Shown here piece after piece: positions 14,965 to 37,513 of a stretch of 64,000 bases of DNA. Position 1 is the stretch's first letter. Each line of letters starts with the position of its first letter. The notes beneath the pieces were generated by a model, which did no database searches, was not told where the DNA came from, and was given only the letters and a program-made list of their open reading frames with translations. A program made the position numbers and the translations under genes. Source of the stretch: a virus (Duplodnaviria > Heunggongvirae > Uroviricota > Caudoviricetes); the IMG/VR virus record IMGVR_UViG_2737471833_000002, one strand, 5' to 3'.

Positions 14965-15810
14965 ATGCTGGCTAAAGTCACTTTCCTGAGCTGTATAACG
15001 ATGAGCGATTTTACTTTTTCTGGCTATGAATTGGCCTGCTTTGTAACACACTCCGGTCTATCTCGTAGCGCCGGGCATATCCTGTCGCAATGTGCAAATC
15101 TAGCGGCAACAACCAGTGAATACTTCATTCACAAGCCTCACCGCCTGATCGCGGCAGAAACTGGTTATAGCCAATCAACCGTCGTTCGTGCATTCCGTGA
15201 AGCTGTAAACAAAGGAATTCTGTCTGTAGAGATTGTTATCGGCGATCACCATGAACGTCGCGCTAACCTGTACCGGTTTACACCATCCTTTTTGGCCTTC
15301 GCACAACAAGCCAAAAATGCGCTGATTGAAAGCAAATTAAAGATCTCTTCAGCGGCAACCAAGGTTAAAGCTGTTCTCGCTAAGACATTGGCTTTATTTA
15401 ATTTTTTATCCACACCCCCATGTCAAAATGATACCCCCTCCCCCTGTCAGGATGACGTGGCAATAAAGAATAAGAAGTCACAAGTTAAAAAAACAAAAAG
15501 ATCAGTTTCCGGCGGTGCCGGAACGACCAGACTCAAAAAATTGACTTCATGGATCGCTGAGGCAAAAGCAAAGGCTGACAATCTGCGGTTATCCAAAAAA
15601 CGCGCTCAAAAACATGAGTTCAAGCAGAAAGTAGAGGCGGCAGCGCGGAAATATGCTTACCTGAAGGACAAGCGTTCTCCTGATATTGGCGGGATATCAA
15701 ACTTCGATAATCTGCCACATTGCATGACGGTAAACGAAGCTCTTAATGCGGTTTTAGCCAAAAATAAAGATAACGAACAATGGGGTATACCGGCAGGATT
15801 CAGAGGGTAA
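14965..15810 (+). CDS. repL: RepL-like lytic replication protein
   Basis: 281 aa, HTH-like N-terminal region, Lys-rich C-terminus; position directly after kilA. Confidence 0.45.
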   Translation: MLAKVTFLSCITMSDFTFSGYELACFVTHSGLSRSAGHILSQCANLAATTSEYFIHKPHRLIAAETGYSQSTVVRAFREAVNKGILSVEIVIGDHHERRANLYRFTPSFLAFAQQAKNALIESKLKISSAATKVKAVLAKTLALFNFLSTPPCQNDTPSPCQDDVAIKNKKSQVKKTKRSVSGGAGTTRLKKLTSWIAEAKAKADNLRLSKKRAQKHEFKQKVEAAARKYAYLKDKRSPDIGGISNFDNLPHCMTVNEALNAVLAKNKDNEQWGIPAGFRG

Positions 15811-25621: not shown

Positions 25622-26431
25622 TTATTTGCTAAGAGCAGCGAATAATCGTTCGAAATCGATAGTATCTATAGCACGCGTAAGCGCCGGAAGTTCAGCCTCA
25701 AAGTACCCGTGTCGATCGTAAAAGAAGGGACCGAAGAGCGAGGCATGTTGGATTCTACTTCGCCCCAGCCCGGACACACAGTTAAGCCCATTACCGGCTA
25801 AAAGGCTAAAAAACTTCTCTGGATTATCGTGGTAAAGCTGGGAATCAATGGTGGCGGTTAACTCTTCCATAGGGAAGCACACCCGCCTTGTCTCCCAGGA
25901 ATATTTAGTCCGAAGCATAAACATTGCTTTCAGCAATTCACATTGAGCGCGGATCGCGTCCGGTTCATAGCCAGATATGGAGACATAAGCCACGTCCCTC
26001 ATTCCTGCGTCATCTTTGAAAGTCACGATAGAAGTAACATCCAGCTCTTTTTCGAAAGAGCGGGCAGCATCTACTGGACGCTGAAGTAAATCATTCGACT
26101 TAATGCGCTCGAGAATCCCTCCCCACATATCATTTAGATATTCGATATGAGCCAAAACCTTATCAAGACACTCTCGTGTAAACCATTCAGTATGCCCGCC
26201 ACCAGCGCTTTTCTCCCACGGCGCATTCCAGGGGAAAAAGGTTGCGTGTAAAGCCCGCTCAAGATTAACTATTGCCAAACGCGTACCACGATAGACCCGT
26301 GAAAGCGCAAAATCGGGACTCACTTGTAGCCCTTTAAACCGTGCCAATGGACCACATGAAATGCCGATTTTAAAAGTATCTCCATTCTCCGGCACCAGAA
26401 CGTAGAGGTAGTGTTGTTTCTCTTCTTGCAT
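25622..26431 (-). CDS. T5orf172-domain (GIY-YIG-like) protein
   Basis: N-terminal YLYVLVPENGDTFKIGIS...LERALHATF...GGGHTEWF pattern; sits between the incA-like iterons and parA. Confidence 0.6.
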   Translation of the reverse strand: MQEEKQHYLYVLVPENGDTFKIGISCGPLARFKGLQVSPDFALSRVYRGTRLAIVNLERALHATFFPWNAPWEKSAGGGHTEWFTRECLDKVLAHIEYLNDMWGGILERIKSNDLLQRPVDAARSFEKELDVTSIVTFKDDAGMRDVAYVSISGYEPDAIRAQCELLKAMFMLRTKYSWETRRVCFPMEELTATIDSQLYHDNPEKFFSLLAGNGLNCVSGLGRSRIQHASLFGPFFYDRHGYFEAELPALTRAIDTIDFERLFAALSK

Positions 26432-26723: not shown

Positions 26724-27608
26724 TTATGGATTGCGCTTATGGATCTGGAAGCCGATTTTCCTGCCGTTTTTTATTTCTGAAAATTTAAGATATTCAATAG
26801 CTTCCAAATCTTTCATGGCTTTTCTGATAACGCTATTTTGCACGCTAACGGATGATTTGAGATTAAGCCTTGCTCTAAGGCGCTCAATGCTGACAGGTGC
26901 CGGGTTGGCGGGTAGAGCCTCAAAGAATGTATACAGTACCTTGGCCGTCTCTTTGCGCCCGAGCTTATCCAGCATCTTCAGCTTCAGGATTCGCTTATAG
27001 TCAACATAGTAAAGTTCAGATAGCTGTTTCTGCGGCTGGATCTCGATAACATCAAGCTCGGTATTCAGGCTGCTATATGCCAACAAGTTGACGTTAATGT
27101 TATTGAGATGACCTTTTGCCGCCGGGAAGCGGAATTTGACAACTGTCTGCTGAATGCGTGTCAGAGAGTCATCAATACTTTTACGGAACGCCTTTGAAAG
27201 GCGCTTACGTGGATAGCCGCATCGATCGGCAAACTCGGAGAATGGCAGGGTGATTATGCCGTCATCATCAGGTGCGTAGTCAAACAACGCGGAGGTTATG
27301 CCCACCCACACCTTAAAATCAGTATCCATATCCAGGCGTGGGCCATGAATTTCAATTCCCTCATAGCCTTCCTGCTCAACAATTTTAAGGCTTGATAGTT
27401 CTTCGGTTGCGTTCGTTGTGTTTGTAGTAACTGACGATCCGCGACGTAGTGCCACATTGGTAGATTTTAAGGTTGGCACAAACACACCTAAGCGCAACAA
27501 AGCGATAGGTTGTATAGTGCTGTTGTTATTGGGCTTCAGGCTGTGGATTTCTCCTGTATTTCCTGCAACTTCTTCAACGCTAAGGAAGCCTTTACTTTCT
27601 TCCGGCAT
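26724..27608 (-). CDS. repA: plasmid replication initiator RepA (P1 RepA family, diverged)
   Basis: 294 aa; TIQPIALLRLGVFVP and GPRLDMDTDFKVWVG resemble P1 RepA; flanked by iterons on both sides. Confidence 0.85.
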   Translation of the reverse strand: MPEESKGFLSVEEVAGNTGEIHSLKPNNNSTIQPIALLRLGVFVPTLKSTNVALRRGSSVTTNTTNATEELSSLKIVEQEGYEGIEIHGPRLDMDTDFKVWVGITSALFDYAPDDDGIITLPFSEFADRCGYPRKRLSKAFRKSIDDSLTRIQQTVVKFRFPAAKGHLNNINVNLLAYSSLNTELDVIEIQPQKQLSELYYVDYKRILKLKMLDKLGRKETAKVLYTFFEALPANPAPVSIERLRARLNLKSSVSVQNSVIRKAMKDLEAIEYLKFSEIKNGRKIGFQIHKRNP

Positions 27609-30130: not shown

Positions 30131-30147
30131 ATTGCCCTAATAAATAT
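30131..30147 (+). promoter_or_regulatory. C1-repressor operator-like site
   Basis: ATTGCCCTAATAAATAT (15/17) upstream of the 30219/rdgC/dmt operon. Confidence 0.45.
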
Positions 30148-30503: not shown

Positions 30504-31401
30504 GCACTGGAAAAACATTACTATTTATAAACTTTCTCGTGAGGCGGATCTGACCGACTTAGAAGATAAAAAGAAAATGATCCTTTTCACGCCATGCGGT
30601 AGTCAGGATATGGCCAAGTTCGGTTTTGTATCTCCATTTGGTGATAATTCCGAAGTTATCGCTATGCATGGAAATGGTTTTATCCTTGTTGAAGCAAAGC
30701 GCGAAACAAAAATTCTTCCCCCGCCGGTTATCCAGCGAGCTATTCAAGAAAAAATTGAAAAACTTGAGCAAGAACAAGCGCGTAAACTGAAGAAAACAGA
30801 GAAGGACTCCCTGAAAGACGAAGTTCTGCATTCTCTTCTGCCACGGGCTTTTTCAAAGTTTTCTGTTATCCAGGCGATCTACGACGGTTCAACTAAACGT
30901 ATCTATATCAATGCCAGCGCGCGGCAGGCAGAGGATATGCTCGCGCTTATGCGTAAATCTCTGGGTTCTCTTCCTGTTGTGCCCCTAAGTGTTGAAAATC
31001 AAATTGAGTTAACGCTGACCGACTGGGTGCGTGATGGTAGTGCTCCGCAGGGATTTCAAATGGGGGATGCGGCAGAACTTAAGGCAGTGCTTGAGGATGG
31101 CGGTATTGCCCGAGTGAAAAAGCAGGACTTGGGAAGTGATGAAATATCCACACACCTGGAAGCTGGCAAGCTCGTCACTAAGTTGGCACTCGACTGGCAG
31201 AACCGCATTAAATTTACACTGGACCATAACTTCAGCCTTACCAGCGTCAAATTTGCGGATGAATTGCTTGAGCAGAACGCTGATATTGATAGTGAAGATG
31301 TTGCGCAGCGACTGGACGCAGATTTCTTCCTGTTGACCAGTGAAATTTCGTGCCTGGTTGATGCTCTGGTAAATGCCCTTGGCGGAGAGGCTAAGCAGTG
31401 A
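30496..31401 (+). CDS. rdgC: RdgC-like recombination-associated protein
   Basis: 302 aa from the internal ATG; near-collinear with E. coli RdgC ([48 protein letters not shown]). Confidence 0.85.
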
Positions 31402-34400
31402 AAGAGCTGTGCTACGGATCTGTTTGCAGTGGAATTGAAGCCGCGAGTATTGCCTGGGAACCGTTGGGTATGCGTCCGGCGTGGTTTGCTGAAATCGAGC
31501 CTTTTCCATCTGCCGTTCTTGCGCTCCGCTGGCCCCATGTCGCCAACCTTGGCGACATGACAAAACTTGCCAAAAAAGTCTTGGCTGGGGAAATCGAATC
31601 CCCTGACGTGCTCGTCGGGGGAACACCATGTTTTACCGCGGGGCATATGGTTCTTTGTAAAAATGGTTATAAACCAATAGAAGATGTTTGCCCTGGCGAT
31701 TACGTAGTCAGTCATCTCGGGCGGTTACAACAAGTAAAAAGAGTTGGTTCAAAAATAGCTAATACGGGGTTACTTAATGCCGTTGGGCAGCCTTTAGGTA
31801 TAAGAACAACCAATGACCATCCCTTCCTGGCTGTTCGGTGGAAAGCCCAAAACACCCGGAAAAATGGCACATATTTTAAGAGAGAGTTGTTGTCTGAACC
31901 GGAATGGCGAGCAGCATGTGATATGCCGGGATATCAATGGTGCGCTCTAACTAATTTCAATATTGCATCTCCAGATATTTGTTCTCGGTTCTTGTCTGAA
32001 GAACAGGCTATGTATCTTGCGGGCGCTTATGTAGGCGATGGATATATTAGGAGATGGAGAGGTAAATCTAAGAAGGCGGTTGTTTTTGGCATAAATTGCC
32101 AGAAATTGAGAAAGTTTCATTGCCACATACCAGAAAACATGTTTTCCGTGGCAAGCGAAATCCGAGGGAGCATCAAAGTAACCTTGAATGATACGTGTTA
32201 TGCCAATTGGCTTAATGAACATTTTGGCGAGTTAAGCCATGCTAAACGTATCCCTGCATGGGTGATGTCGCATCCATTGCGTCATGTGTTTTTACAAGGC
32301 TATCTTGATACTGATGGGACACCAAGTGGTAAAGCGGGATTTAGAATTAATAGTGTTAGTCCTGCGCTTGCTTGGGGCGTTGCGGGGTTGTCACAGACTT
32401 GTGGTTATGTTTCTTCGGTCAGCTTTATTGAAGTTGAGCCCAAAAAAGTGATCGAGGATCGCGTGGTAAATCAACGGGATTATTATCAGGTAACAATCTG
32501 CCCGCAGAAATTGTCACGTAAATCAAGATTGGCTCATGGAATGCTTTTACGAACAGTCAAAGAGTTTAAATCGGTAGGCCTAGATACTGTATACAACATA
32601 GAAGTCGAAGGTGATCATTCCTATATCCTCAATGGTGCGGTGGTCCATAACTGTCAGGCATTCAGTATCGCGGGATTACGTGGTGGGCTTGATGATGAGC
32701 GTGGCGCGCTAACTTTAAAGTATGTGGAGCTTGCAAATGCAATTGACGACAAACGGGCTGAGTCATTTCTCAAACCAGCCGTTATCGTCTGGGAAAATGT
32801 CCCAGGAGTCTTGTCATTGGCAGATAACGCCTTCGGATGTTTCCTTGCCGGATTGGCTGGAGAAGATGTGCCATTTGAACCAGGTGATCGACCTGAATCA
32901 GGAAAAAGCAACGCGTTCTGGCGGTGGGATGGCAAAACCGGTTGCCATGTTCCAAAGTGGCCGCAGTGTGGTTGTATTTATGGACCGCAGCGAAAGGTGG
33001 CCTGGAGAATCCTTGATGCCCAATACTTCGGAGTGGCACAACGACGCCGACGCGTGTTTGTTGTCGCAAGTGCTCGAACAGACCTCGATCCCGCAACGGT
33101 ACTTTTTGAGTTCGAAGGCGTGCGCCGGAATATTGCGCCGAGCCGAAAAAAGAAGGAAATCGCTTCCGCCATTATTGCAAATGGCGCTGCAATCAGTGGC
33201 GAAAGCCTAAATCCATGCCTACACGCTGGCATGTCTCCCGGTATGAAATCGACGAAAGCCGTAAACGGTTTCAGGATGGCGGCATTTGGGGAATATATTG
33301 ACGATGAAACCGCATCGACAGTAAAGGCAAGAGATTTTAAAGATGCCACTGACCTTGCCGTTTTTAGCAGCACAGGAGCAGGTTTTTGGTCAGAAGGGCA
33401 TGGTACATTGCGGGCACGTGAGCAAGAAAGCCATGAGCATCTTGTTACATTGGCTTTTCCTGAGCGTATGAGCGGTACACAACATGCTGCAACTAAGAAT
33501 ACTTCACCATCTCTAATGGCTAAAAATCCAACAGCTGTTTGCTATGAAGTAAGAAACGCAGAAGTAGCTGTCCGCCGTCTTACCCCTGTCGAATGTGAAA
33601 GGCTGCAAGGTTTTCCTGATGGGCATACGTTGATCCCGACGGAAAAGCGTAAAAAAGTTAATTCAGATGAACTGGCATATCTCCGCAATCACTATCCAGA
33701 TTTAAGCGAAGAAGAGGCCGCGATGCTTGCAGCTGACGGACCGCGTTACAAAGCGATCGGCAATAGTATGGCAATACCAGTAATGCGCTGGATTGGCGAT
33801 CGGATTACTAAGGCCGTATGTCGGCAGAAAGAAGGAAGTGAAACAAAAGAGCGAAAAGTTAAACCAGCGACAGAATTCGAACGGTCCATATTCAAATGGG
33901 CTGGTGGAAAATTTGGTGTTCTGGAACAAATCTTTCGCTATTTGCCAGAAGGGAAGCGCCTGATTGAACCTTTCGTTGGTGGCGGAGCTGTCTTCATGAA
34001 TGCCGGATACCAGGAAAATCTGCTAAATGATGTGAATGCTGACCTGATTAACTTTTACAAGACTCTGCAACGCGAGGCGCATTCACTTATCACTCTGGCA
34101 CATCGTTTCTTCCAGGACTACAACACACAGGAAGGATACCTGGCAGTACGGAATGCGTTTAACAAACAAGTCTATGATGATTTACATCGCGCAGCGGCGT
34201 TTTTGTTCCTGAACCGACATTGTTTTAACGGATTGACGCGTTACAACCAGGCCGGTGAGTTCAATGTCGGTTATGGGAAGTATAAAACTCCGTATTTCCC
34301 ATTACAGGAGATGGAAGCCTTCCTCGGTGCGGAAGGGCGGTCTGAGTTTGTATGCGGTGATTTTGCAGCGGTGATTGAAGCTGCCGGAGAAGGAGATGTC

Positions 34401-34685
34401 ATCTTTTGCGATCCGCCGTATGAACCGCTTCCAAATACAGAGGGATTCACGAACTATTCCGGTCATGACTTTAAGTTTGAAGAGCAAAAACGCCTGGTGT
34501 CTCTGTTGACGGATGCTCATCGTCGAGGTGCAAAGGTTCTCATTACTAACAGTGGCGCGCCAAACATCAGAGAGCTTTATCATGACAGTGGCTTCAGAGT
34601 GGAACCTCTTTTTGCCAGACGTTCTGTGTCTTGTAAGGGGGACACTCGAGGTGTAGCTCATGACGTTTTGGGTATATTGCTCTAA
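31398..34685 (+). CDS. dmt: bifunctional DNA methyltransferase (C5-cytosine domain plus Dam-like N6-adenine domain), interrupted by an intein
   Basis: GTG start overlapping the rdgC stop; CSGIEAAS (motif I), [12 protein letters not shown] split by the intein, VVWENVPG (ENV); C-terminal [10 protein letters not shown] and FCDPPYEP; extein 754 aa. Confidence 0.85.
31629..32651 (+). mobile_element. intein (Hint splicing domain plus LAGLIDADG homing endonuclease), 341 aa
   Basis: Begins [28 protein letters not shown]; block B TTNDHPF; [10 protein letters not shown] and [11 protein letters not shown]; ends [21 protein letters not shown] followed by Cys; excision restores [12 protein letters not shown]. 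Confidence 0.8.
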
Positions 34686-34692
34686 TAAATTT
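34676..34692 (+). promoter_or_regulatory. C1-repressor operator (perfect consensus match)
   Basis: ATTGCTCTAATAAATTT 17/17, overlapping the dmt stop codon; upstream of the tRNA/tciA/ban region. Confidence 0.55.
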
Positions 34693-34866
34693 ATTAGTGT
34701 AATATCACCTCAATGAATCGTGATTTATAGAGCGATTTAGCTGTTAGCCGCGACAGGCGCGGCGGTAAGCATGGCTGGGCCTAGTCCTCCCAGACAAACC
34801 ACCGAGTTGCCAGGTTGACCATGCGCCTAAGTGGCAACGCCGAAGTGCGTTACGAGCTTCCAGTTT

Positions 34867-35357: not shown

Positions 35358-35433
35358 GATGGTGTAGCTCAGCGGTTAGAGCGGTTGACTGTTAATCAAC
35401 GGGTCGATGGTTCAAATCCATCCACCATCGCCA
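35358..35433 (+). tRNA. tRNA-Asn (anticodon GUU)
   Basis: Cloverleaf: acceptor GATGGTG/CACCATC, D-arm GCTC-AGCGGTTA-GAGC, anticodon loop CTGTTAA, T-loop TTCAAAT, encoded CCA. Confidence 0.85.
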
Positions 35434-35435
35434 AT

Positions 35436-35511
35436 GCCGGTTTAGCTCAGTTGGTAGAGCGCCTGCCTTGTAAGCAGGATGTCAGCGGTTCGAGTCCGTT
35501 AATCGGCACCA
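35436..35511 (+). tRNA. tRNA-Thr (anticodon UGU)
   Basis: Cloverleaf: acceptor GCCGGTT/AATCGGC, anticodon stem CCTGC/GCAGG with loop CTTGTAA, T-loop TTCGAGT, encoded CCA; 2 nt after tRNA-Asn. Confidence 0.85.
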
Positions 35512-37041: not shown

Positions 37042-37160
37042 TGGGCTTCTGGGATTTTGCTGACAAGTATCCAATTGTTCTCATTATTATTGTTGCCATA
37101 GTTGTAGGCGGCATTGTTAGCGCCATTGAAGCACTTAGTAAACAGTAATCCGGCCCCTTA
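37041..37160 (+). CDS. small membrane peptide (39 aa)
   Basis: ATG overlaps the previous stop (TGATG); MGFWDFADKYPIVLIIIVAIVVGG...; 3' end overlaps tRNA-Ile by about 10 nt, so doubtful. Confidence 0.25.
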
Positions 37161-37226
37161 GCTCAGTGGTTAGAGCTGGCGACTCATAATCGCACGGTCA
37201 CCGGTTCAAGTCCGGTAGGGGCCACC
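37151..37226 (+). tRNA. tRNA with CAU anticodon, most similar to tRNA-Ile2 (lysidine-dependent)
   Basis: GGCCCCTTAGCTCAGTGGTTAGAGC...CTCATAA...TTCAAGT...AGGGGCCACCA; near-identical framework to E. coli ileX as I remember it; would default-annotate as tRNA-Met. Confidence 0.8.
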
Positions 37227-37513
37227 ATATTTGGTTGTAACACGGCGTCTGGCACATGCGTCGTTAGCGGTCTGGTGACGTTAAAAGGGGGGAACCTTGC
37301 CCCTAGCTCAGGCAACGAACCAGGTAGCCGGAATGTGCAAGCCACCGTTTGTTGTTTCTCGGGTAAAGGGATTCACCATCCTAGCGATTCGGTGTGACAG
37401 CCGGGAAGAGTCCGGCGCATTAATCCTGATTTTCTGGTGATGACTCATATCGTTAGGAGTGATTTGAGTATGCCGATTATATCTGACATTCAGCACGCCT
37501 GGGTGGAGTGCTA

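What the first reader, a model, noticed from the sequence alone, without database searches (positions are those of the whole stretch)
31629..32651. LAGLIDADG intein inserted exactly in the catalytic PCQ motif of the Dcm/Dam methyltransferase
The 1095-aa dmt ORF reads ...LVGGTP then [28 protein letters not shown] (Hint block A), TTNDHPF (block B), two LAGLIDADG-type motifs ([21 protein letters not shown]), and ...[21 protein letters not shown] followed by [12 protein letters not shown]. Removing residues 78-418 recreates a canonical C5-methyltransferase motif IV ([12 protein letters not shown]) and leaves a 754-aa two-domain extein. Inteins are, to my knowledge, very rare in enterobacterial phages and plasmids, and this one sits on the catalytic nucleophile, so cytosine methylation depends on protein splicing while the Dam-like domain may not. 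The insert also looks more AT-rich than its flanks.
Basis: partly seen in the sequence, partly recalled or inferred. Interest (0 to 1): 0.8.

Follow-up and report, generated by a model that had tools for sequence, protein, structure and literature searches.

The report
Intein in P1-family Dmt methyltransferase
The DNA methyltransferase gene of this P1-like E. coli phage-plasmid is interrupted, exactly at its catalytic cysteine, by a canonical self-splicing intein with a homing endonuclease; the kind of element is well known, but this copy is common, unlabelled in the databases, and easy to test.

Summary
ORF 31398-34685 (+) is the P1-family bifunctional methyltransferase Dmt, with a C5-cytosine domain followed by a Dam domain. 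Nucleotides 31629-32651 are a precise, in-frame 1023-bp insertion that phage P1 itself lacks. The insert has every feature of a class 1 intein: Cys1, TxxH, a terminal His-Asn and Cys+1. It also has two LAGLIDADG motifs with their catalytic Asp residues. It passes the Pfam and NCBIfam cut-offs, and its predicted structure (pLDDT 93) best matches PI-SceI and other endonuclease-bearing inteins. The +1 Cys aligns with the catalytic PCQ cysteine of M.HhaI.

The intein is not rare. It is in 31% of dmt-bearing complete E. coli genomes (152 of 493) and in about 130 PLSDB plasmids, all named only "Dam family methyltransferase". Related inteins occupy the same P|C site in C5-methyltransferases of many bacteria, one archaeal MAG and several phages. 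A preprint already lists C-5 methylases as intein hosts.

Population data fit a splicing-competent, recently spreading element. All 28 copies are intact, the splicing domain is under purifying selection, and the intein is 2.5-6 times less diverse than its flanks.

Verdict: a real new member of a known kind, of moderate interest.

The parts
30131..30147 (+). C1-repressor operator-like site (ATTGCCCTAATAAATAT), homologous to P1 Odmt/Op68 next to promoter Pdmt. By homology it controls the uhr-hrdC-dmt operon.
   Evidence: 96% identical alignment to the annotated P1 Odmt/Pdmt region. The operator consensus has 11 matches in the window against 0.43 expected.
31398..31628 (+). N-extein: Dmt residues 1-77, holding C5-methyltransferase motif I and the GGTP part of motif IV.
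   Evidence: ORF, alignment to P1 Dmt, PF00145 match.
31629..32651 (+). Intein, 341 aa, class 1, with an inserted LAGLIDADG homing-endonuclease domain.
   Evidence: Precise 1023-nt gap in P1 dmt. Pfam and NCBIfam hits. AF2 model with pLDDT 93.1. Foldseek best matches are PI-SceI at E=1e-16, then the TliVMA and PhoVMA inteins, PI-PfuI and PDB 2cw7/PI-PkoII.
31629..31709 (+). Intein block A, including Cys1 ([27 protein letters not shown]).
   Evidence: Hint_2 match to residues 1-49. C1, F2 and G5 are invariant in homologues.
31806..31826 (+). Intein block B (TTNDHPF), with T61 and H64 forming the TxxH motif.
   Evidence: T61 and H64 are invariant in alignments A1 and A2 and conserved in all 28 close copies.
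32016..32045 (+). First LAGLIDADG motif ([10 protein letters not shown]), with catalytic Asp137.
   Evidence: Model helix 124-137 followed by a strand. D137 is nearly invariant. Motif coordinates.
32289..32321 (+). Second LAGLIDADG motif ([11 protein letters not shown]), with catalytic Asp229.
   Evidence: PF14528 match to residues 221-282. Model helix 218-229. D229 is conserved in all 28 copies.
32589..32651 (+). Intein blocks F and G ([21 protein letters not shown]), ending in His340-Asn341.
   Evidence: TIGR01443 at 28.9 bits. Local match to the C-terminus of the Spl DnaX mini-intein.
32652..32654 (+). Cys+1 codon. It is the splice-junction nucleophile and also the Cys of the methyltransferase PCQ motif.
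   Evidence: The in-silico spliced product aligns [12 protein letters not shown] with GFPCQAFSISG of M.HhaI. That this Cys (Cys81 in M.HhaI) is the catalytic nucleophile is established knowledge, not tested here.
32652..34685 (+). C-extein: the rest of the C5-methyltransferase domain (motif VI ENV at 32790-32807, motif VIII QRRRR at 33039-33059, the variable target-recognition region, motif X GNS at 33759-33782), then the Dam (D12-class N6-adenine) domain from about 33897 to 34595, and the stop codon.
   Evidence: PF00145 and PF02086 (191.9 bits) and TIGR00571 (248.8 bits). Motif coordinates.

Best explanation
The segment is a genuine class 1 intein carrying a LAGLIDADG homing endonuclease. 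It lies between Pro77 and the catalytic Cys of motif IV (PCQ) in the N-terminal C5-cytosine methyltransferase domain of the bifunctional Dmt protein of a P1-family phage-plasmid. The window is essentially identical to E. coli S51 plasmid pS51_2.

Shown here: the anatomy, the fold, the precise empty-site allele, the distribution, and the conservation pattern.

Inferred:
1. After translation of the 1095-aa precursor, the intein excises itself by the standard four-step pathway: an N-S acyl shift at Cys1, trans-thioesterification onto Cys+1, Asn341 cyclisation, and an S-N shift.
2. This yields a 754-aa Dmt in which GGTP and CQAFS are joined, so the C5 active site exists only after splicing. The Dam domain lies entirely in the C-extein and may work in the precursor as well.
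3. The free intein, or the precursor, cuts intein-less dmt alleles at the GGTP|CQ site. Repair from the intein-bearing copy then spreads the intein among P1-like elements (homing).
4. Because the operon carries a P1-type C1 operator, expression is expected on lytic derepression.
For: - Insertion: it is precise, in frame, and absent from P1 dmt.
- Profiles: LAGLIDADG_3, Hint_2 and intein_Cterm are all above their curated cut-offs.
- Fold: the AF2 model has pLDDT 93.1 and pTM 0.89. The best PDB matches are all endonuclease-bearing inteins, led by PI-SceI at 1.4e-16, followed by free-standing LAGLIDADG enzymes such as I-SceI.
- Host enzyme: in-silico splicing raises the PF00145 score from 103.5 bits in 3 stretches to 127.1 bits in 2, the best now running unbroken from residue 8 to 134 across the junction. 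The spliced product aligns without a break to M.HhaI through PCQ.
- Intactness: 28 copies from IMG/VR and GenBank are all exactly 1023 nt, with no stops. C1, T61, H64, D137, D229, D329, H340 and N341 are kept in all, and all 28 were located by the VHNCQ junction, so Cys+1 is also present.
- Selection: pN/pS is 0.31 overall. The Hint lobes have 3 nonsynonymous and 9 synonymous polymorphisms against 12 and 5 in the endonuclease domain (Fisher p=0.025).
- Spread: intein nucleotide diversity is 0.0057, against 0.035 upstream and 0.014 downstream in the same alleles.
- Backgrounds: the intein sits in at least three target-recognition-domain variants of Dmt, giving proteins of 1095, 1013 and 1148 aa.
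- Flanks: haplotypes switch to the intein-less type at nested distances on both sides, and the nucleotide at -1 is a fixed A/T difference.
- Same site elsewhere: homologous inteins at 23-52% identity occupy the same P|C site in C5-methyltransferases of many taxa and phages.
Against: - No experimental evidence of splicing or of endonuclease activity exists for this element.
- The Hint_2 score is only 0.1 bit above its cut-off, and PF14890 is below its cut-off.
- Endonuclease-domain polymorphism looks relaxed (12 nonsynonymous, 5 synonymous), so the nuclease could be decaying.
- The mosaic flanks and multiple backgrounds could come from ordinary homologous recombination among P1-like plasmids rather than endonuclease-driven homing.
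- The population sample contains some duplicate contigs, and the polymorphism counts are small.
Confidence: 0.85

Rival explanations
1. The intein still splices, but its endonuclease is inactive. Its present distribution would then reflect one old invasion followed by vertical descent and ordinary homologous recombination among P1-like plasmids, not ongoing homing.
For: The endonuclease domain has 12 nonsynonymous and 5 synonymous polymorphisms, which is near neutral. The target-recognition region of dmt is itself highly mosaic, with variants of 672, 754, 807 and 862 aa, so recombination in this gene is frequent anyway. The downstream haplotype linked to the intein also occurs in intein-less alleles.
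Against: Both catalytic Asp residues (D137, D229) and a full-length endonuclease domain are kept in all 28 copies, with no deletions to a mini-intein. The intein is 2.5-6 times less diverse than its own flanks, which suggests recent spread across diverged alleles. Flank tract ends are nested around the insertion site on both sides.
Confidence: 0.3
2. The insert is a degenerate, non-splicing Hint/LAGLIDADG domain. It permanently disrupts the C5-methyltransferase domain and is tolerated because only the C-terminal Dam domain matters to the phage.
For: The P1 GenBank annotation gives the C5 activity of Dmt only as 'perhaps'. The one stated biological role is Dam methylation, which P1 needs at pac sites for packaging (PMC12707154). 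The reference P1 allele carries a unique G74W change in motif IV (1 of 66 intein-less alleles), so loss of C5 function can be tolerated.
Against: All splice-site residues are conserved in every copy, and the Hint lobes show strong purifying selection (3 nonsynonymous, 9 synonymous). Neither would be expected if splicing were irrelevant. The C5 motifs I, IV, VI, VIII and X of the extein are intact.
Confidence: 0.07
3. It is a bacterial intein-like (BIL) domain, or another in-frame insertion element such as a disguised intron or endonuclease cassette, rather than a true intein.
For: There is a weak sequence hit to a BIL-domain structure (2lwy, E=0.89). In-frame non-intein insertion elements are known in phage methylase genes, for example the ShiLan domain (PMC11855218, listed).
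Against: The insert has a nested LAGLIDADG domain, a conserved +1 Cys and a terminal His-Asn. It sits in the most conserved motif of a conserved enzyme. Its best structural matches are canonical inteins at E=1e-16, against 1.6e-3 for the BIL domain. The Hint N- and C-lobes flank the endonuclease domain as in PI-SceI.
Confidence: 0.03

Closest known systems
PI-SceI (S. cerevisiae VMA1 intein) and the archaeal VMA, PI-PfuI and PI-PkoII inteins
   Same: They share the bipartite architecture: a Hint splicing domain split by a two-motif LAGLIDADG endonuclease, with Cys1, a terminal His-Asn and Cys+1. They are the best structural matches, at E from 1e-16 to 7e-9.
   Different: Sequence identity is only 11-16%. 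This intein is smaller (341 aa against 454-537). The host protein and host organism are different.
Inteins at the P|C site of other C5-cytosine methyltransferases: Mannheimia phage vB_MhS_587AP2 (48% identical), Metarhizobium album prophage (49%), Propionibacterium phage B22 (31%), Lactobacillus phage Nyseid (29%), E. coli Asteriusvirus jumbo phages such as A4 (27%), and the C-5 methylase inteins of actinobacteriophages listed in 10.1101/2025.01.02.630785
   Same: The insertion point is the same (G-x-P | C-Q/T) wherever I read the junction: phage A4, the Metarhizobium prophage, 13 further genome loci and 11 metagenome proteins. The remaining named phage hits share the intein type, homologous over its full length, but I did not read their junctions.
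   Different: Here the host is the bifunctional C5+Dam fusion protein Dmt of P1-family phage-plasmids of Escherichia, Salmonella and Shigella. Identity to all of these is at most 52%. I found no paper describing the P1-family copy.
Mycobacteriophage DNA methylase inteins (DNMT-1/2; Kelley et al. 2016, PMC5050341)
   Same: They are phage-borne LAGLIDADG inteins in DNA methyltransferases, with about 26% identity over the full length.
   Different: Their hosts are N6/N4 methylases (PF01555), not C5 enzymes, so the insertion site is different.

Membership tests
Class 1 intein (Hint-fold protein-splicing element) | Cys or Ser nucleophile at intein position 1 | tested here: met
   Cys1 (ORF residue 78). 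It is invariant in 15 homologues and in 28 close copies.
Class 1 intein (Hint-fold protein-splicing element) | Block B TxxH motif | tested here: met
   T61-N-D-H64. T61 and H64 are invariant.
Class 1 intein (Hint-fold protein-splicing element) | C-terminal His-Asn followed by a Cys, Ser or Thr at +1 | tested here: met
   The sequence reads ...VVHN|C. TIGR01443 scores 28.9 bits against a cut-off of 15.6. N341 is invariant.
Class 1 intein (Hint-fold protein-splicing element) | Hint fold | tested here: met
   AF2 model with pLDDT 93.1. Foldseek matches to PI-SceI and the VMA inteins at probability 1.00. Pfam Hint_2 scores 28.5 bits against 28.4, a borderline pass.
Class 1 intein (Hint-fold protein-splicing element) | Precise in-frame insertion in a conserved host protein, with intein-less alleles whose sequence equals the joined exteins | tested here: met
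   P1 Dmt (754 aa) equals the N-extein plus the C-extein. The gap is exactly 1023 nt. 66 intein-less alleles were examined.
Class 1 intein (Hint-fold protein-splicing element) | Autocatalytic excision with ligation of the exteins | not testable with these tools
   This needs expression followed by western blot or mass spectrometry. The only indirect support is purifying selection on the Hint lobes.
LAGLIDADG (DOD) homing endonuclease | Two LAGLIDADG motifs, each ending in a catalytic acidic residue | tested here: met
   LAGAYVGD137G and LQGYLDTD229G. PF14528 scores 34.5 bits against 22.5.
LAGLIDADG (DOD) homing endonuclease | Pseudo-dimeric alpha-beta-beta-alpha-beta-beta-alpha fold | tested here: met
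   The secondary-structure order in the model fits this fold. Foldseek matches I-SceI at E from 5e-5 to 5e-4, and more weakly I-OnuI variants, I-AniI and other LAGLIDADG enzymes.
LAGLIDADG (DOD) homing endonuclease | Site-specific cleavage of the empty allele, and homing | tested here: inconclusive
   The population signatures are compatible with homing: low intein diversity against the flanks, nested flank tracts, and three or more host backgrounds.
C5-cytosine DNA methyltransferase (host domain, PF00145) | Motifs I, IV (PCQ), VI (ENV), VIII (QRR) and X (GNS) in order | tested here: met
   The spliced product scores 127.1 bits on PF00145 and aligns to M.HhaI across PCQ and ENV.
Bacterial intein-like (BIL) domain | A Hint domain without an endonuclease, located in variable regions of non-conserved proteins, often without a +1 nucleophile | tested here: not met
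   An endonuclease domain is present, the site lies in the catalytic motif of a conserved enzyme, and Cys+1 is conserved.

The most novel reading that the evidence does not exclude
The intein is more than a passenger. One possibility is that its endonuclease, expressed from the C1-controlled lytic operon, cuts the intein-less dmt of competing P1-like phage-plasmids during superinfection or co-induction, acting as an interference weapon. Another is that splicing at the Cys1/Cys+1 junction is conditional, for example redox-sensitive, so that the C5-methylation (anti-restriction) activity of Dmt is switched on after translation and independently of its Dam activity.
Probability: 0.12. Interest if true: 0.65.

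Novelty: new member of a known kind. Interest (0 to 1): 0.4.

Why it matters
P1 is a classical model phage and a standard transduction tool, and P1-like phage-plasmids are important carriers of resistance genes. About 9% of complete E. coli genomes carry a P1-family dmt, and nearly a third of those carry this intein. Every public record I saw names the protein only 'Dam family methyltransferase' or something similar.

The intein therefore offers a naturally occurring E. coli system for studying protein splicing and homing in the native host. One deposited P1 isolate (OP279344) already carries it. It also matters for annotation, for interpreting 5mC methylomes of strains that carry these plasmids, and for understanding why the C5 half of Dmt has remained uncharacterised.

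Conceptually it is another case of an intein sitting on a catalytic residue. Here the residue that completes splicing is the same one that later attacks cytosine C6.

Tried and rejected
- Ten full-text literature searches used combinations of intein with dmt, P1, P1-like, RCS47, Punavirus, phage-plasmid, cytosine methyltransferase and Dcm. None returned a paper describing this intein. The hits were unrelated.
- A search for explicit statements that E. coli lacks inteins found nothing usable, so I do not lean on that claim.
- The papers citing OP279344 are about Argonaute proteins, not Dmt.
- A direct sequence search of the PDB gave only weak hits (E=0.0014 to the Spl DnaX mini-intein, 0.016 to PI-PkoII). 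The fold comparison was needed.
- The first attempt to scan genome contigs with the 15-sequence alignment failed because no block was conserved enough. It was repeated with the eight closest sequences.
- The AT-richness of the insert was considered as evidence of foreign origin. It was rejected as weak, at the 12th percentile of windows.
- The mycobacteriophage 'DNA methylase' hits were considered as alleles at the same site. They were rejected because those hosts are N6/N4 methylases.
Full report
**Observation**

The window carries a 1095-codon ORF at 31398..34685 on the + strand, with a GTG start. Its neighbours match phage P1: uhr and hrdC/rdgC lie upstream, and tRNA-Asn and tRNA-Thr lie downstream. 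P1-type C1 operator sequences are also present, with 11 matches against 0.43 expected. One of them sits at 30131-30147, in the position of P1 Odmt.

The window matches E. coli S51 plasmid pS51_2 (NZ_CP015997.1), a P1-like phage-plasmid, at 15286 of 15288 positions compared.

Aligned with the reference P1 Dmt (754 aa), residues 78-418 (nt 31629-32651) form one gap of exactly 341 aa / 1023 nt, between ...GTP and CQAFSIAG.... Deleting them leaves 754 aa.

**Identity of the insert**

- Pfam scores LAGLIDADG_3 at 34.5 bits (cut-off 22.5) and Hint_2 at 28.5 bits (cut-off 28.4). PF14890 is below its threshold.
- NCBIfam scores the intein C-terminal splicing region, TIGR01443, at 28.9 bits (cut-off 15.6).
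- An AlphaFold2 model built on 15 homologues has mean pLDDT 93.1 and pTM 0.89. It shows beta-rich N- and C-terminal lobes around a central alpha/beta domain, in which each LAGLIDADG motif ends a helix (124-137 and 218-229).
- Foldseek against the PDB returns only endonuclease-bearing inteins at the top: PI-SceI at 1.4e-16, then the TliVMA and PhoVMA inteins, PI-PfuI and PDB 2cw7 (PI-PkoII). Free-standing LAGLIDADG enzymes such as I-SceI follow.
- The residues that define a class 1 intein are all present: Cys1, T61-x-x-H64, His340-Asn341 and Cys+1. Both LAGLIDADG acidic residues, D137 and D229, are present too.

**Relation to the host enzyme**

Joining the exteins in silico gives [12 protein letters not shown]. 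The PF00145 score rises from 103.5 bits in three pieces to 127.1 bits, and the best stretch now covers residues 8-134 without a break. The joined protein aligns without interruption to M.HhaI, matching [12 protein letters not shown] to GFPCQAFSISG.

The Cys of PCQ (Cys81 in M.HhaI) is the nucleophile that attacks cytosine C6; that is established knowledge, not tested here. So the +1 residue that completes splicing is the methyltransferase's own catalytic cysteine. The Dam (D12-class) domain, ORF residues 834-1066, lies wholly in the C-extein.

**Distribution**

The same intein, at 95-100% nucleotide identity, occurs in:
- phages RCS47 and vB_EcoM-Ro157c2YLVW, and a deposited P1 isolate, OP279344;
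- 133 PLSDB plasmids of Escherichia, Salmonella and Shigella, out of 498 with a dmt match;
- 152 of 5426 complete E. coli genomes, of which 493 carry a P1-family dmt, giving 31% occupancy.

The exact 1095-aa protein is on 190 contigs in the large protein collection. Every source name in its cluster is 'Dam family site-specific DNA-(adenine-N6)-methyltransferase'. Only fragments, or the Mannheimia relative, are labelled 'Hint domain-containing' or 'DOD-type homing endonuclease'. Ten full-text searches found no paper describing an intein in P1-family dmt.

**The site is a recurrent intein site**

Homologues at 48-52% identity, and a wider set at 23-39%, interrupt C5-methyltransferases at exactly the same point (G-x-P | C-Q/T). 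They occur in:
- Mannheimia haemolytica and the Metarhizobium album prophage (its phage 587AP2 matched, but I did not read that junction);
- Gemmiger, Blautia and other Clostridia;
- Bacteroidaceae, Coriobacteriales and Arthrobacter;
- Mesorhizobium, Beijerinckiaceae and Sphingopyxis;
- a Desulfurococcales archaeal MAG;
- E. coli Asteriusvirus jumbo phages (A4 reads GGFP|C...VVHN|CQAWSVAG). Propionibacterium phage B22 and Lactobacillus phage Nyseid also matched, but I did not read their junctions.

A 2025 preprint on actinobacteriophage inteins lists C-5 DNA methylase among host proteins already known to contain inteins (10.1101/2025.01.02.630785). The mycobacteriophage 'DNA methylase' inteins of Kelley et al. 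2016 are in N6/N4 enzymes and so are not the same site (PMC5050341).

**Is it functional and mobile?**

I extracted 28 intein-bearing and 66 intein-less close dmt alleles from IMG/VR and GenBank loci.

- *Intactness.* All 28 inteins are exactly 1023 nt, with no stop codons. C1, T61, H64, D137, D229, D329, H340 and N341 are conserved in all, and all were located by the VHNCQ junction, so Cys+1 is present too.
- *Selection.* Among 15 distinct intein sequences there are 15 nonsynonymous and 14 synonymous polymorphisms, giving pN/pS of 0.31. The Hint lobes carry 3 nonsynonymous and 9 synonymous changes, against 12 and 5 in the endonuclease domain (Fisher p=0.025). This pattern is expected if splicing is under selection and the nuclease is less constrained.
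- *Diversity.* Nucleotide diversity of the intein is 0.0057. In the same alleles it is 0.035 in the 231 nt upstream and 0.014 in the 480 nt downstream. This suggests the intein has spread recently across already diverged dmt alleles.
- *Backgrounds.* The intein occurs in at least three target-recognition-domain variants: 754+341=1095, 672+341=1013 and 807+341=1148 aa.
- *Flanks.* The nucleotide at -1 is A in all 28 intein-bearing alleles and T in all 66 intein-less ones. Several synonymous upstream variants (-22, -48, -104, -118) are private to intein-bearing alleles. One subgroup has its own run of third-position changes at -16, -13, -10 and -7.
- *Tract ends.* The points where flanks revert to the common intein-less haplotype are nested: upstream between -22/-48 and -104/-118, and downstream at +24, +66/+106 and +117/+126.

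This is what variable co-conversion tracts from repeated homing would leave. Ordinary recombination among P1-like plasmids, which clearly shuffles the target-recognition region, cannot be excluded. The sample contains a few duplicate contigs, and the counts are small.

**Mechanism proposed**

The steps below are inferred from the established class 1 splicing pathway.
1. The uhr-hrdC-dmt operon is derepressed when C1 is inactivated. This rests on operator homology.
2. The 1095-aa precursor folds, and Cys1 forms a thioester.
3. Cys+1 attacks that thioester.
4. Asn341 cyclises and releases the intein.
5. An S-to-N shift gives the native Pro77-Cys78 bond of motif IV.

Only then can the C5 domain methylate DNA. 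The Dam domain may act in the precursor or in a C-terminal cleavage product. The released intein is predicted to cut GGTP|CQ empty sites in other P1-like elements.

**Assessment**

The AT-bias remark is weak, since 43.0% GC puts the insert only at the 12th percentile of windows. The rarity remark is overstated.

This is a genuine, probably active, widely distributed but unannotated intein. Inteins at this site of C5-methyltransferases are already a known kind, so it is a new member rather than a new kind. Its interest is practical: it is a natural intein in the E. coli/P1 model system, with the splice nucleophile doubling as the enzyme's catalytic residue.

Noticed in passing
L001:1720-1722 (AF234172 P1 dmt codon 74); corresponds to window 31617-31619: The reference P1 genome (mod749::IS5 c1.100) has Trp instead of Gly at Dmt residue 74, giving WGTPCQ in motif IV. 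It is the only one of 66 intein-less alleles with this change, and all 28 intein-bearing alleles have Gly. The C5 domain of reference P1 Dmt may therefore be defective, which could explain why its cytosine activity is annotated only as 'perhaps'.
   Followed up: partly
window ~33250-33700 (the variable region of dmt between motifs VIII and IX); loci L069, L082, L070, L013: The target-recognition region of Dmt is highly modular across P1-like elements. Intein-less proteins come in lengths of 672, 754, 807 and 862 aa that differ by block replacement of this region, which implies several different C5 specificities in the family.
   Followed up: partly
L003 (OP279344.1, 'Escherichia phage P1 isolate del res del mod'): A deposited P1 isolate, cited in two Argonaute papers, carries the intein and the short (672-type) recognition variant, giving a Dmt of 1013 aa. 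The reference P1 sequence does not. At least one phage deposited as P1 therefore differs from the reference at dmt.
   Followed up: partly
L137:1501-2547 (Sphingopyxis sp. GW247-27LB): A related intein at the same site is followed by Ser instead of Cys at +1 (VVHN|SQGFSLAG). After splicing, this methyltransferase would lack its catalytic cysteine.
   Followed up: no
P0012 (Mannheimia haemolytica, 439 aa, seen on 578 contigs); phage vB_MhS_587AP2 27587-28606: The 48%-identical intein in Mannheimia sits in an ORF that ends 22 residues after the intein (HN|CQSDKGG...*). The phage record annotates two separate methyltransferase CDSs there. The host gene appears broken downstream of an intact intein.
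   Followed up: no
window 25622-26431 (-) and 26724-27608 (-): In pS51_2 these ORFs are annotated as a GIY-YIG nuclease family protein next to a RepB-family replication initiator. The GIY-YIG ORF could be a second, free-standing homing-type nuclease in the same element. I did not compare this region with P1.
   Followed up: no
window 34676-34703: A perfect C1 operator (ATTGCTCTAATAAATTT) and an inverted partner overlap the dmt stop codon. This corresponds to the divalent Oban operator of P1. There are 11 operator-like sites in the window against 0.43 expected.
   Followed up: partly
window 35358-35433, 35436-35511, 37152-37227 (+): Three tRNA genes (Asn-GTT, Thr-TGT, Met-CAT) lie downstream of dmt. 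The first two match the P1 tRNA pair.
   Followed up: no
H57 / H118 (NZ_CP070875.1, E. fergusonii plasmid, 106022-106327): This dmt copy stops matching 76 nt into the intein. Only the N-extein and the first 76 nt of the intein are present, and nothing is annotated there. It is possibly a truncated or rearranged intein-bearing allele.
   Followed up: no
L007, L009/L113 (IMG/VR contigs): Some intein-bearing dmt copies have early frameshifts in the N-extein, giving ORFs of 58-61 aa. These are either draft-assembly errors or pseudogenes.
   Followed up: no
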